Shown here in pieces: positions 6,001 to 8,832 of a stretch of 8,832 bases of DNA (position 1 is its first letter; each line of letters begins with the position of its first letter). Where the stretch lies: the IMG/VR virus record IMGVR_UViG_2537561709_000011, one strand, 5' to 3'. The position numbers are program-made. The stretch comes from a virus. Taxonomy: Duplodnaviria > Heunggongvirae > Uroviricota > Caudoviricetes.

Positions 6001-8832
6001 GGCGGATATTGGGGGTTCAGGTATGGCGATGTTTTCCCCGCAGTACAACATCGAGATCAATAACGATGGCACGAACGGGCAGATAGGTCCGGCTGCCCTG
6101 AAGGCGGTTTATGACCTCGGGAAAAAAGCGGCAGCGGACTTTATGCAACAGCAGGCCCGTGATGGTGGTCGGTTAAGTGGAGCATATCGGTAATGGAGAC
6201 GTTTCACTGGAAAGTGCGCCCGGATATGAATGTGTATGAGCGTCGTGAGGGCGCTGGTGATGGTGTTCGTCGAAAGGTGGCGCGTTATGGCCTGCCTGGT
6301 CATTCTGTTGTGGTGCGTGACGGTGAGGGCCGGAACGGTGCAATTGACGGCGAATGTATACGCATCAATGCTACAGATGTGGTGCTGGTGGAGGGGCAAT
6401 AAAAAACCCTGAAAGATTTCTCCGGGTGCTCCAGTTGCACGTGGCAGAAATCCTTCAGGGTCAGCCGTAACGGGCCTCTGTACAGAGGGCTCCAGTTGCC
6501 CAGAGATGAGCACCCGCTACAGCCTGTTGTGATAAGCCGCTTTACAGTGAGCTCCAGTTGCTCAAAGAGGCGCGTTTTTATCACAACCTGACCGCGATAA
6601 CCCGCTGTACAGAGGGCTTCAATTGCCCAAAGAGGCGCATTCTTATCGCGGCATGACGAAATCACCGTGATGTTTTCGTCGTTCACTCATCCCGATGTGT
6701 GGGAGATGCACCGGAATGAGTGCCGAAAAGCCGCTGGCTGGCTTCATGCAGTCGGACTCAGTTGCCCGGGGCGAACACCATCAACGGCCTTTTGGTGGTG
6801 ATTATAGCGAATCGCGATAATTGAGCAAATACGGTGATGAGATGCGTATCACGGTAGCGCTAAATCGTCGCCTGCATCACTGAAGCTGTAATTTCTCCAT
6901 TCATCCTGCGGATTAATCCCCATCTCTTTCAGCGTTCTGTCTGCGGCCTTTTTCACATCGCCAAAGGTGACGAACTGCTCAGGCATACGACGGGTTTTAC
7001 TGATGCATATCGCCCGACGTCTGGCAGCTTCCTCGCGTTCACTGTCCGTTTCTGCGTGAAGAAGAACCTCAGCCCATCGGGTCGCCGCACGTCGCCATAA
7101 ACCGCGCTCCTCAAGTTTCTGTGCCACGCTGTCCGTCATCACTGGCTTTACCTCCGGCTGATTACTGCTGACTGTTTTTCTGCTTCATCTGCTCCAGTCT
7201 CCGCTTCAGTAGTTCGCTGGCTACTGATTTATCTTCTTCCGTGACTTCACCGCAAGGTTGCCCGTTCAGTCCATACCGTGCGCCGCCAGCGACAATGGCT
7301 TTCAGGTATCGCGTCGTGTGGATGTATGAGGTTAATGCGCCACGTAATACGCCATGACCAATCGCCAGTTCCCGCGCCTTCGCGTCCTGCAACATATCGT
7401 GTATCACGCCAGCCTTAAGGGGTTTTATATTCTCTGCCCCAAACAGTTCAGGCCAGTACTCAGCCAGTCGGTTTATCCTCCTGCGGTTTTTTCGCTGCCG
7501 CTTTGTCATGTGCTGCCACGGTATGCGCCGTGATGGTTTACGTGTGGTCTGGTCCTGTTGTGTGGTCTGCTGGTTCATGTTGTGCTCCTGTCATTCAGAA
7601 CGGAATATCGTCAGAGAACGGGTCATCACCTCCCGCTGGTGGCTGATTCCCCCGTGTTCCGGTCTGTCGTTTTGCTCTTTCCAGTGCTTCGGTCGCCTTC
7701 CCCTGTTGCCCCCGCTTCCCGCCAGGACGCGCCGAACGGGCACTGATTACGCTGTCAGCGATAACCTGCCAGCCCTGCCGTATTTCTCCGTTCTGTCCGG
7801 TCCACTGACTGATCTGCATGTTACCCGCCACGCTGATAAGGTCGCCTTTTTCATGTCTCGCCAGCGCGTCGGCCTGCTTACCAAATGCCAGGACTGATAG
7901 CCATAACGTCGCCTGTCCGTCCTGTGCCTGACTGCATGGCAAAGATACCGCCATACGCGCCAGCGTCATCGGTGTGCCCTTGCTGGTCTGTTTTACCTGC
8001 GGGTCGTCCACCAGCCGTCCGTAAGCTGCAATCTGTGCTGTCATGGTCTGCGCTCCTTGTTCCGGTACTCTTGGATAATACCCATTGTCATATCGAATAA
8101 ATCACAACGCCGAATTACAGTTTTCTCGGGTACAGCGGCACGATGAAAGTGACGCCCGATCGCATCACGGACTACAAAGCACCATCGGCAGAAGAGGCTG
8201 CCGTCGCCAGCCAGGCCGCGAAGCGTCCGCCGGTAGTCAACTATCCGGGGGAAGGTTTCCGGGAAATGACAAAGGCACAGTGGGCCGCCCTGCCCCGGGA
8301 CTGTAAGGCCGTGCGCAGTGTGGCAGAAGCAGAAGACCACGGGGCATACCGCTACCGCCGCACAATGGACAATAATTTCCGTCTGGTGAATGTGTATATC
8401 ACCGACATGAAAATTACGGAAATCCCACAGAAATAAGGTATATCCCCCCGGGAAATCCCCGGGGGATGACGGAGATAATGACATGCACAGTCAGTTAAAA
8501 GAACGTATCCGGCTGATGCGCGCAAGGCTGGATAACGCCGCGCCGGTTGCTGAAATCCGGGCTGAATCTCAGCTTTTTGTGACTCCTGCCCCGGTCTGTG
8601 ATCGCCTGGTGACGCTGGCGGAGATCAGCAACCGTGATCACATTCTGGAACCCTCTGCCGGCACCGGGGCCATACTGCGGGCGATTCGGGATACCGCACC
8701 GGAGGCCATGTGTGATGCGGTGGAAATCAACAGCGGGCTGGTCCGGTATCTGCGGGAAAATTTTAACGGTGTCAGGGTTCAGTGTGGCGACTTCATGGAA
8801 TGGCAGCCGGTGCAGTATTACAGCCGGGTTAT

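What the first reader, a model, noticed from the sequence alone, without database searches (positions are those of the whole stretch)
8143..8832. Hypothetical gene plus SAM-dependent methyltransferase next to the ssb operon: candidate anti-restriction or establishment cargo
A + strand pair diverges from the ssb operon: a 97-aa unknown protein, then a class I methyltransferase (motif I ILEPSAGTGAI), truncated by the window. Orphan methyltransferases next to ssb are typical of elements that must survive entry into a restricting host. The target (DNA adenine, or RNA or protein) cannot be decided from the N-terminal 116 aa.
Basis: partly seen in the sequence, partly recalled or inferred. Interest (0 to 1): 0.5.

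Follow-up and report, generated by a model that had tools for sequence, protein, structure and literature searches.

The report
Plasmid methylase fragment on chimeric contig
The two reading frames are a broken-off piece of a well-catalogued plasmid gene pair (ydbA-ydcA, a DUF3560 protein plus a small adenine-type methyltransferase from the early-entry region of F-like plasmids), and they sit next to this ssb gene only because the 8.8-kb draft contig joins three unrelated pieces of an E. coli O157-type genome.

Summary

**The window is a mosaic.** It is the whole scaffold KB004216.1 of the E. coli 97.1742 draft assembly, made of three pieces:
- 1-6234: lambdoid prophage tail genes.
- 6229-8106: a chromosomal P4-like island (PerC, ProQ/FinO, ssb).
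- 8102-8832: plasmid pO157.

Each piece is 100% identical (piece B apart from one edge base) to loci that lie megabases apart, or on another replicon, in complete O157:H7 genomes. The joints are 6-bp and 5-bp microhomologies inside genes. The 8102-8106 joint was found in no other public sequence searched.

**What the two ORFs are.**
- The "97-aa unknown protein" is the C-terminal end of the 453-aa DUF3560 protein YdbA, read from internal Met357.
- The methyltransferase is YdcA (187 aa). The full-length protein has an invariant NPPF motif IV just past the window end and no target-recognition domain. It resembles the TaqI/EcoKI/DarB-type adenine methylase module.
- In 82 of the 135 closest relatives, YdbA and YdcA are fused into one protein.

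**Native context.** The pair lies about 0.85 kb upstream of the plasmid's own ssb, in the leading region, behind an Frpo-like single-strand promoter.

The "establishment cargo" reading is therefore right for the wrong reason. The family is already catalogued, and its methylation target is untested.

The parts
8102..8436 (+). 3' fragment of ydbA (pO157p46, DUF3560 protein): second base of codon 343 to the stop codon.
   Evidence: 100% identical to pO157 45343-45677. Translation matches YdbA residues 344-453. Break position computed.
8441..8468 (+). GC-rich hairpin between the ydbA stop and the ydcA ribosome-binding site (RNA dG -23.5 kcal/mol, z -2.3); role unknown.
   Evidence: sequence read.
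8471..8474 (+). Shine-Dalgarno GGAG, 8 nt before the ydcA ATG.
   Evidence: sequence.
8483..8832 (+). 5' 116 codons of ydcA (pO157p47, 187-aa class I SAM methyltransferase). Motif X-like QLFVTP, motif I LEPSAGTG (8642-8674 covers ILEPSAGTGAI), motifs II and III. Motif IV NPPF lies 2 codons past the contig end.
8102..8106 (.). Joint between island DNA and pO157 DNA; 5-bp shared TCACA.
   Evidence: Absent from all collections searched.
8041..8106 (-). Last 21 codons plus stop of the 149-aa island gene that precedes ssb in its operon. The rest is cut off by the joint. The listed 147-aa minus-strand ORF 8041-8484 is the artefactual continuation into plasmid DNA.
6229..8106 (-). Piece B: fragment of a chromosomal P4-like island carrying the PerC-family gene 6849-7142, ProQ/FinO 7162-7578 and ssb 7595-8044. 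Context only; not functionally linked to the methyltransferase.
   Evidence: Exact match to CP076230 and NC_013353 from 6229; the BLAST alignment from 6226 has one mismatch, at 6228. Pfam assignments.
6229..6234 (.). Joint between prophage tail DNA and island DNA; 6-bp shared AATGTG. Truncates tail gene M after 14 codons and creates the chimeric ORF 6193-6402.
1..6234 (+). Piece A: lambdoid prophage head-tail joining and tail module (Z, U, V, G, T, tape measure, start of M).
   Evidence: 100% identical to O157:H7 prophages. Pfam calls.

Best explanation
**What the interval is.** It holds a fragment of the ydbA-ydcA gene pair of pO157/R100-type IncF plasmids: the last 110 codons of ydbA and the first 116 of ydcA. 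In a draft-assembly scaffold of E. coli 97.1742 this fragment has been joined to unrelated chromosomal DNA. The join is most probably an assembly or library chimera. The neighbourhood with this ssb therefore carries no biological information.

**Native setting (shown).**
- The pair sits about 11-12 ORFs from oriT in the leading region, on the strand that makes the transferred strand the template.
- It lies downstream of its own copy of an Frpo-like element, which folds into a roughly 190-nt hairpin.
- It lies about 0.85 kb upstream of the plasmid ssb.

**The proteins (shown).**
- YdcA is a minimal Rossmann-fold amino-methyltransferase with an NPPF catalytic motif and no target-recognition domain.
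- It is homologous to the TaqI/EcoKI/DarB-type adenine methylase module.
- YdbA and YdcA are the split form of a DUF3560-methyltransferase protein that is fused in most relatives, which points to their acting as one enzyme.

**Mechanism (inferred, about 0.5).**
1. After conjugative entry, the hairpin promoter on the single strand drives a burst of expression.
2. YdbA brings YdcA to the incoming DNA.
3. YdcA methylates adenine N6 with little sequence specificity.
4. This protects the plasmid from recipient restriction enzymes.

This would be a functional parallel to M.EcoGIX, using an unrelated class of enzyme.
For: **Mosaic structure.** Local BLAST places window 1-6234 on an O157:H7 prophage (100%). 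It places 6226-8106 on a P4-like island next to yicC (one mismatch, at 6228), and 8102-8832 on pO157 (100%). In the same complete genomes, pieces A and B lie about 3.7 Mb apart (CP076230, CP066753 and CP038380). Piece C lies on the plasmid.

**Break points.** All fall inside genes, with exact overlaps of only 6 and 5 bp.

**Uniqueness.** The chimeric ORF 6193-6402 occurs on exactly one contig, KB004216.1 of GCA_000316725.2, E. coli 97.1742. The joint 52-mer is absent elsewhere. No complete genome or plasmid spans it, and the phage collection gave no match.

**Native order.** DUF3560, then the 187-aa methyltransferase, then SSB, DUF905, ParB-like, PsiB, PsiA, and on to oriT/TraM. This was seen in pO157 and six other contigs.

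**Promoter.** The region upstream of the operon is 92% identical to the F sequence just upstream of ssb. It is about 80% identical to two other such copies. It folds as a long DNA hairpin on the template strand (dG -66.8, z -6.2). Zygotic induction from such promoters is shown for F and pESBL (PMC12672017).

**Enzyme.**
- NPPF is invariant.
- M.TaqI is the best PDB match for the single sequence (5e-6) and second for the family profile (1.2e-7, just behind MJ0882 at 9.7e-8).
- PADLOC matches mad2 (3e-20) and type II DNA methylase models (1e-10).
- PHROG matches fall on methylase modules of giant phage proteins (1e-30).
- The P1 DarB methylase module aligns end to end. Those modules are assigned to the EcoKI/TaqI-like DNA adenine methylases in PMC5512222.

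**Fusion.** 82 of the 135 closest 50%-identity representatives carry a YdbA-like N-terminal part.

**Catalogue.** Samuel et al. 2024 list a leading-region family of about 1,950 adenine methylases and a DUF3560/YdbA family of about 1,900, at median ORF positions 11 and 12 from oriT.
Against: - An in vivo illegitimate recombination cannot be formally excluded without the reads. Microhomology of 5-6 bp is also what such events leave.
- ydbA is often broken while ydcA stays intact. This weakens the idea that YdcA strictly needs full-length YdbA.
- No experiment on YdcA or YdbA was found in the paper library.
- Matching Samuel et al.'s family 26 to YdcA is my inference from its size, position and KEGG labels, not a sequence match.
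Confidence: 0.8

Rival explanations
1. The joints are real. In strain 97.1742 a piece of pO157 leading region, a P4-like island fragment and a prophage tail module were fused in vivo by microhomology-mediated illegitimate recombination, so the methyltransferase fragment truly lies next to this ssb.
For: Both joints have short microhomologies (AATGTG, TCACA) that are unlikely for random abutment (about 0.002 and 0.006). Such joints are typical of illegitimate recombination. The scaffold contains no N.
Against: - Three segments from two replicons and two chromosomal sites 3.7 Mb apart would need two independent events within 1.9 kb.
- Every break destroys a gene: tail gene M, an island gene, the gene upstream of ssb, and ydbA.
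- The contig is short and ends inside ydcA.
- Nothing similar exists in 5,426 complete E. coli genomes or any other collection searched.
- Even if real, both genes would be truncated pseudogenes with no functional link to ssb.
Confidence: 0.1
2. YdcA is not a DNA methylase. It modifies host RNA (rRNA or tRNA, at adenine N6 or guanine N2) or a protein glutamine, reprogramming the recipient's translation during plasmid establishment.
For: - The best NCBIfam scores are to Erm and KsgA, and PrmC also appears.
- The PDB profile search ranks MJ0882, KsgA, ErmC' and HemK close to M.TaqI.
- The protein is the size of stand-alone RNA methylases and has no DNA target-recognition domain.
Against: - All these scores lie far below the family cut-offs (for example 34.5 bits against 212 for Erm).
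- The C-terminal RNA-binding domain of Erm/KsgA is absent.
- Sequence identity is highest to M.TaqI (29%).
- DNA methylase models of PADLOC and PHROGs score much better (3e-20 to 3e-31).
- The domain recurs in DarB-like anti-restriction proteins (PMC5512222).
Confidence: 0.2
3. The 97-aa ORF is an independent small gene, as the reader assumed and as gene callers annotate it on many plasmids, working with the methyltransferase without the rest of YdbA.
For: - The exact 97-aa product is called as a separate gene in 86 blocks of the contig index. Its cluster has 304 members.
- 5'-deleted plasmids keep YdbA residues from about 311 or 327 to 453 directly upstream of an intact ydcA.
Against: - In pO157 and in clusters of 8,962 and 5,613 sequences the frame is continuous over 453 aa.
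- The separate calls coincide with stops, frameshifts, insertions or deletions in ydbA.
- There is no Shine-Dalgarno sequence before 8143.
- In fused relatives the region is an internal segment of one polypeptide.
Confidence: 0.07

Closest known systems
ydbA-ydcA (pO157p46-p47; R100-type names YdbA, YdcA) of IncF leading regions. These are probably families 28 and 26 of Samuel et al. 2024 (PMC11541004).
   Same: Window 8102-8832 is 100% identical in DNA to pO157. Same gene order, intergenic hairpin and ribosome-binding site.
   Different: Only a fragment is present, and it is detached from its promoter, from the 5' three quarters of ydbA and from the 3' 71 codons of ydcA.
M.EcoGIX / M.BceJIII, the single-strand-directed m6A methylases of plasmid leading regions (PMC7736820)
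   Same: Same genomic niche: leading region, template-strand orientation and early expression. Same proposed role of protecting entering plasmid DNA. Orphan enzyme, reported silent in ordinary growth.
   Different: M.EcoGIX is a beta-class DPPY enzyme (PF01555). Its pO157 homologue is a different gene, pO157p38, about 5.7 kb upstream. YdcA has the order motif I then NPPF, gives no PF01555 hit, and has a DUF3560 partner.
M.TaqI and EcoKI HsdM-type (gamma-class) N6-adenine DNA methyltransferases
   Different: No C-terminal target-recognition domain (M.TaqI) and no HsdS partner or N-terminal HsdM domain. The protein is 187 aa against 421 or more.
Methylase module of phage P1 DarB and other polyvalent anti-restriction proteins (PMC5512222)
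   Same: Alignment runs from motif X to the LPxGTF motif (DarB 91-267). PHROG profiles of giant phage proteins match at 1e-30. Both are delivered or expressed at the moment of DNA entry.
   Different: DarB has GNVPF instead of NPPF, is fused to LPD36 and an SF2 helicase, and is packaged in the virion. YdcA is free-standing or fused to DUF3560.
METTL5 / PH1948 rRNA m6A methyltransferases
   Different: 15-24% identity. METTL5 is a cellular housekeeping enzyme that needs TRMT112. No genomic association with mobile elements.

Membership tests
Gamma-class (TaqI/EcoKI-like) N6-adenine DNA methyltransferases | Class I Rossmann fold with SAM-binding motif I (xxGxG) | tested here: met
   LEPSAGTG at residues 55-62, within the window. 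Pfam MTS 28.4 bits against a cut-off of 23. AF2 model pLDDT 88 with the canonical strand and helix order.
Gamma-class (TaqI/EcoKI-like) N6-adenine DNA methyltransferases | Catalytic motif IV (N/D)PP(Y/F/W) located after motif I | tested here: met
   NPPF at 119-122 of the full-length pO157 protein. N119, P121 and F122 are invariant, and P120 is nearly invariant (one exception), in 40 homologues. The motif lies 2 codons beyond the window end.
Gamma-class (TaqI/EcoKI-like) N6-adenine DNA methyltransferases | A target-recognition domain or specificity subunit | tested here: not met
   The protein ends 65 residues after NPPF, and the model is a single domain. The only candidate partner is YdbA, whose fold gave no informative match.
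Gamma-class (TaqI/EcoKI-like) N6-adenine DNA methyltransferases | Demonstrated m6A formation on DNA | not testable with these tools
   No experimental report was found.
Leading-region establishment genes of conjugative plasmids | Position within the first few tens of ORFs from oriT, oriented so that the transferred strand is the template | tested here: met
   Met in the native loci (pO157, L007-L012): same strand as ssb, psiB and psiA, upstream of oriT/traM. Not met in the window itself, where the context is chimeric.
Leading-region establishment genes of conjugative plasmids | Frpo/ssi-type single-strand promoter hairpin upstream of the operon | tested here: met
   pO157 L001 6205-6460 is 92% identical to the F segment immediately upstream of ssb. 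It folds with z -6.2 on the template strand. Promoter activity itself was not tested. The element lies outside the window.
M.EcoGIX family | Beta-class N6_N4 methylase domain (PF01555) with DPPY | tested here: not met
   No PF01555 hit. The motif is NPPF, and it follows motif I. PF01555 is carried by a separate 227-aa gene in the same region.
Erm/KsgA rRNA adenine dimethyltransferases | Score above the family threshold and a C-terminal helical RNA-binding domain | tested here: not met
   34.5 bits against a cut-off of 212 (Erm), 30.7 against 171 (KsgA), and PF00398 22.5 against 24. There is no C-terminal domain.
DUF3560 (PF12083) proteins - for the 97-aa ORF | Presence of the DUF3560 domain | tested here: not met
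   The domain occupies YdbA residues 89-206. The window holds only residues 344-453, which match no Pfam or PHROG family on their own. The ORF is a fragment of a DUF3560 protein, not a DUF3560 protein.

The most novel reading that the evidence does not exclude
YdbA and YdcA together form a two-piece adenine methyltransferase, fused in most relatives, that lacks any target-recognition domain. It would be a second class of entry-phase methylase, mechanistically distinct from M.EcoGIX. In this reading the long coiled-coil DUF3560 protein, through its beta-rich C-terminal domain, loads the catalytic module onto incoming single-stranded plasmid or phage DNA for near sequence-independent m6A protection.
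Probability: 0.3. Interest if true: 0.5.

Novelty: already known. Interest (0 to 1): 0.2.

Why it matters
**For the scan.** This is a cautionary case. A short draft scaffold joined prophage, island and plasmid DNA and produced a plausible-looking "divergent operon", a false small gene and two chimeric ORFs. Gene-neighbourhood arguments drawn from such contigs are void.

**For biology.** The underlying gene pair is one of the commonest in enterobacterial IncF leading regions: the DNA search found matches in about 4,000 PLSDB plasmids. It is already listed among leading-region families, but it has no experimental function.

Two results make it a cleanly testable candidate for a second entry-phase DNA-protection methylase:
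- The methylase is usually fused to DUF3560.
- In pO157 the operon has its own Frpo-like hairpin.

That follow-up is reasonable, but it is not a surprise.

Tried and rejected
- **Phage search.** Megablast of 6800-8832 against phage genomes gave no match.
- **Junction search.** A 52-mer across the joint was scanned in IMG/VR, the GTDB representatives and the JGI metagenomes. None matched. The source was found instead by exact look-up of the chimeric 69-aa ORF.
- **YdbA in PADLOC and NCBIfam.** No hits.
- **Literature.** Searches for DUF3560, ydbA/ydcA and pO157 methylome work found no functional study.
- **Samuel et al. 'family 14'.** I first suspected that this putative DNA methylase family was this protein. 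The supplementary table shows it is YcjA/YcgC, a different gene.
- **M.EcoGIX homology.** Considered and rejected: different class and a different gene.
- **F plasmid.** F itself lacks the pair, so the published F transcriptome data do not cover it.
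Full report
**1. What is at the coordinates**

The window has a + strand ORF at 8143-8436 (97 aa). A second + strand frame opens at ATG 8483 and runs off the end at 8832, giving 116 codons. GGAG lies 8 nt upstream of that ATG. The second frame carries ILEPSAGTGAI at residues 54-64. An ssb gene (Pfam SSB, 4e-15) lies on the minus strand at 7595-8044. Behind it are ProQ/FinO (7162-7578) and a PerC-family gene (6849-7142).

**2. The context is a mosaic**

Megablast of 6800-8832 against 5,426 complete E. coli genomes and against PLSDB split the query cleanly:
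- 6800-8106 matched chromosomes at 100%.
- 8102-8832 matched pO157-type plasmids at 100%.
- No record covered 80% of the query.
- Phage genomes gave nothing.

The whole window behaves the same way: 1-6240 matches O157:H7 lambdoid prophage tail modules at 100%, and again no record spans the rest.

Local BLAST against fetched reference loci gives three pieces:
- A, 1-6234: prophage.
- B, 6226-8106: island, one mismatch.
- C, 8102-8832: pO157.

Exact overlaps are AATGTG (6229-6234) and TCACA (8102-8106), and the window has no N.

In single complete genomes, A and B lie about 3.7 Mb apart. In CP076230, for example, they are at 3.87 Mb and 0.164 Mb. C is on a separate replicon.

Every break is inside a gene:
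- Tail gene M is cut after 14 codons.
- An island hypothetical gene is entered at nt 214.
- The 149-aa gene that precedes ssb in the island operon keeps only its last 21 codons.
- ydbA is entered in codon 343.

An exact look-up of the chimeric 69-aa ORF (6193-6402) found it on one contig only. That contig is the whole 8,832-bp scaffold KB004216.1 of GCA_000316725.2, E. coli 97.1742. A 52-mer across the B/C joint is absent from IMG/VR, the GTDB species representatives and the JGI metagenomes.

I conclude that the adjacency is most probably an assembly or library chimera (about 0.85-0.9). A real double illegitimate recombination is a minor alternative. Either way, the "divergent pair next to the ssb operon" is not a functional arrangement. 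The intergenic region 8045-8142 is half island gene and half ydbA coding sequence.

**3. What the two frames are**

Piece C corresponds to pO157 45343-46073. This is the 3' end of pO157p46 (453 aa, DUF3560 at residues 89-206), followed by the 5' part of pO157p47 (187 aa).

The 97-aa ORF starts at YdbA Met357. The frame upstream reads TTPNYSFLGYSGT, as in YdbA. It is closed by a TAA at 8098 contributed by piece B.

The same 97-aa product is called as a separate gene on many plasmids, but only where ydbA carries a stop, frameshift, insertion or 5' deletion. Full-length YdbA clusters hold 8,962 and 5,613 sequences.

**4. The methyltransferase**

Motifs and sequence matches:
- The full-length protein continues ...QYYSRV|IINPPFSHGQD.
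- In 40 full-length homologues down to 49% identity, NPPF is conserved: N119, P121 and F122 are invariant and P120 is nearly so. QLF.P, EP.AGTG, DF, GPRQ and two threonines near the C terminus are also invariant.
- Pfam gives only generic hits (MTS at 28.4 bits, Methyltransf_25 at threshold).
- NCBIfam gives sub-threshold Erm, KsgA and PrmC matches.
- Against PDB sequences the best hit for the single sequence is the M.TaqI catalytic domain (5e-6). The alignment runs through motifs X, I and IV. With the family profile, M.TaqI (1e-7) ranks beside MJ0882, KsgA, ErmC' and HemK.

Structure:
- The AF2 model (pLDDT 88.3) is a single Rossmann domain preceded by a helix and a disordered linker.

Mobile-element and defence profiles:
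- PADLOC's best matches are mad2 of MADS (3e-20) and several type II DNA methylase models (1e-10 to 1e-8).
- PHROGs matches the methylase modules embedded in giant phage proteins (profiles of 1.2-3.9 thousand positions) at 3e-31 to 5e-14, and "DNA methyltransferase" families at 1e-24 to 1e-30.
- P1 DarB aligns from motif X to LPxGTF (residues 91-267, 24% identity).
- Iyer et al. assign these polyvalent-protein methylases to the EcoKI/TaqI-like DNA adenine methylases (PMC5512222).

The protein ends 65 residues after NPPF, so it has no target-recognition domain.

My reading is an amino-methyltransferase of nucleic acid, with DNA adenine N6 the best-supported target (about 0.55). RNA stands at about 0.2-0.25, and the rest is protein or inactive.

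**5. The partner**

A profile search of 1.84 billion cluster representatives found 15,626 relatives (E ≤ 1e-3), 522 of them below 1e-30. Many of the closest are 570-730 aa long, with the methylase at the C terminus.

Of the 135 closest new representatives:
- 82 have a YdbA-like N-terminal part.
- 51 of these begin at the YdbA N terminus.
- 34 align through the region corresponding to the window's 97 aa.

The sizes fit: 453 + 187 = 640 aa. The IncF pair is therefore a split version of a commonly fused DUF3560-methyltransferase protein. This is the strongest evidence that the two window frames belong to one functional unit. One fused example sits among small early-type ORFs next to an integrase on a phage-like contig.

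The YdbA model (pLDDT 86.7) has a small alpha/beta N-terminal domain, about 220 residues of long helices, and a beta-rich C-terminal domain (320-453). Fold searches were uninformative.

**6. Native neighbourhood and expression**

In pO157 and six further contigs the order is: small ORF, ydbA, ydcA, small ORFs, ssb, DUF905, ParB-like, psiB, psiA, hok, and on to DUF932, SLT and traM. All of these except the SLT gene (and, in pO157, the small ORF p48) lie on one strand.

The plasmid's own ssb starts about 0.85 kb downstream of ydcA. F itself lacks the pair.

The 256 bp upstream of the pO157 operon (L001 6205-6460) are 92% identical to the F segment immediately upstream of ssb. They are about 80% identical to the copies upstream of pO157 ssb and of the F gene near oriT. 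From the literature, those are the positions of Frpo2 and Frpo1 (PMC12672017). On the template strand the element folds into a hairpin of about 190 nt (dG -66.8 kcal/mol, z -6.2). Early zygotic expression is thus plausible but untested for this operon.

**7. Relation to what is known**

- Samuel et al. 2024 list a leading-region family of 1,957 [quoted passage not shown] proteins at median ORF 11. They list a DUF3560/YdbA family of 1,913 at median ORF 12. By size, position and labels these are this pair. That match is my inference.
- The characterised leading-region methylase M.EcoGIX is a beta-class DPPY enzyme (PMC7736820). Its homologue in pO157 is another gene (p38, PF01555).
- No functional study of YdbA or YdcA was found.

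**8. Verdict**

- The object is an already known, widely annotated plasmid gene pair of untested function.
- Interest is low, at 0.2.
- The most novel reading still open is a split, TRD-less entry-phase DNA adenine methylase targeted by DUF3560 (probability about 0.3).

Noticed in passing
window 1-8832: The whole window is scaffold KB004216.1 of E. coli 97.1742 (GCA_000316725.2). It is a three-piece mosaic of prophage, P4-like island and pO157 DNA, joined at 6-bp and 5-bp microhomologies. Any other first-stage finding that relies on gene neighbourhood across 6229-6234 or 8102-8106 is affected.
   Followed up: yes
window 6193-6402 (+) and 8041-8484 (-): Both are chimeric ORFs created by the joints. 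The first is tail protein M codons 1-14 running into island DNA (deposited as EKW82619.1). The second is the tail of the island 149-aa gene running antisense through ydbA.
   Followed up: yes
window 8441-8468: A GC-rich hairpin (ATCCCCCCGGGAAATCCCCGGGGGAT) sits between the ydbA stop and the ydcA Shine-Dalgarno sequence. RNA dG is -23.5 kcal/mol with z -2.3. No T-run follows it. Its role (processing, stability or coupling) is unknown.
   Followed up: partly
L001 (pO157) 6205-6460, outside the window: A third Frpo-like element in pO157 lies upstream of p45-ydbA-ydcA. It is 92% identical to the F copy upstream of ssb and folds as a hairpin of about 190 nt (z -6.2) on the template strand.
   Followed up: partly
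L007-L012 (IncF contigs), ydbA region: ydbA is broken in different ways (premature stop, frameshift, insertion, 5' deletion), while ydcA is intact at 187 aa in all eight copies. The 5'-deleted versions retain YdbA residues from about 311 or 327 to 453 next to ydcA. The loci were selected through the 97-aa ORF, so the sample is biased towards broken ydbA.
   Followed up: partly
L009 (LM996482.1) 7231-10904: Tandem duplication: ydbA-ydcA followed by a 5'-truncated ydbA' and a second ydcA copy (93.6% against 97.3% identity to the pO157 protein).
   Followed up: no
proteins P0013, P0020, P0108, P0113, P0281-P0287: Rare hybrid proteins join parts of YdcA or YdbA to other leading-region products (PF01555 methylase, PsiA, PsiB, TraX, ProQ, transposase). 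They are probably deletion derivatives or further assembly chimeras of this recombination-prone region.
   Followed up: no
window 6849-8044 (-); L002 and L004: PerC-family regulator, ProQ/FinO-family protein and a 149-aa SSB form the distal end of an operon (primase, 149-aa gene, ssb, proQ-like, perC-like). It lies in a P4-like island integrated next to yicC in EHEC chromosomes, together with an integrase, an Icd-like gene and an antirepressor. A ProQ/FinO RNA chaperone paired with ssb on a satellite-like island may merit its own look.
   Followed up: partly
window 2432-3156: Tail assembly chaperone genes G (2432-2818) and T (2827-3156) lie in the arrangement expected for the lambda-type G/GT programmed -1 frameshift. 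The tape-measure ORF is listed from TTG 3098, but RefSeq and the gene caller start it at 3128.
   Followed up: no
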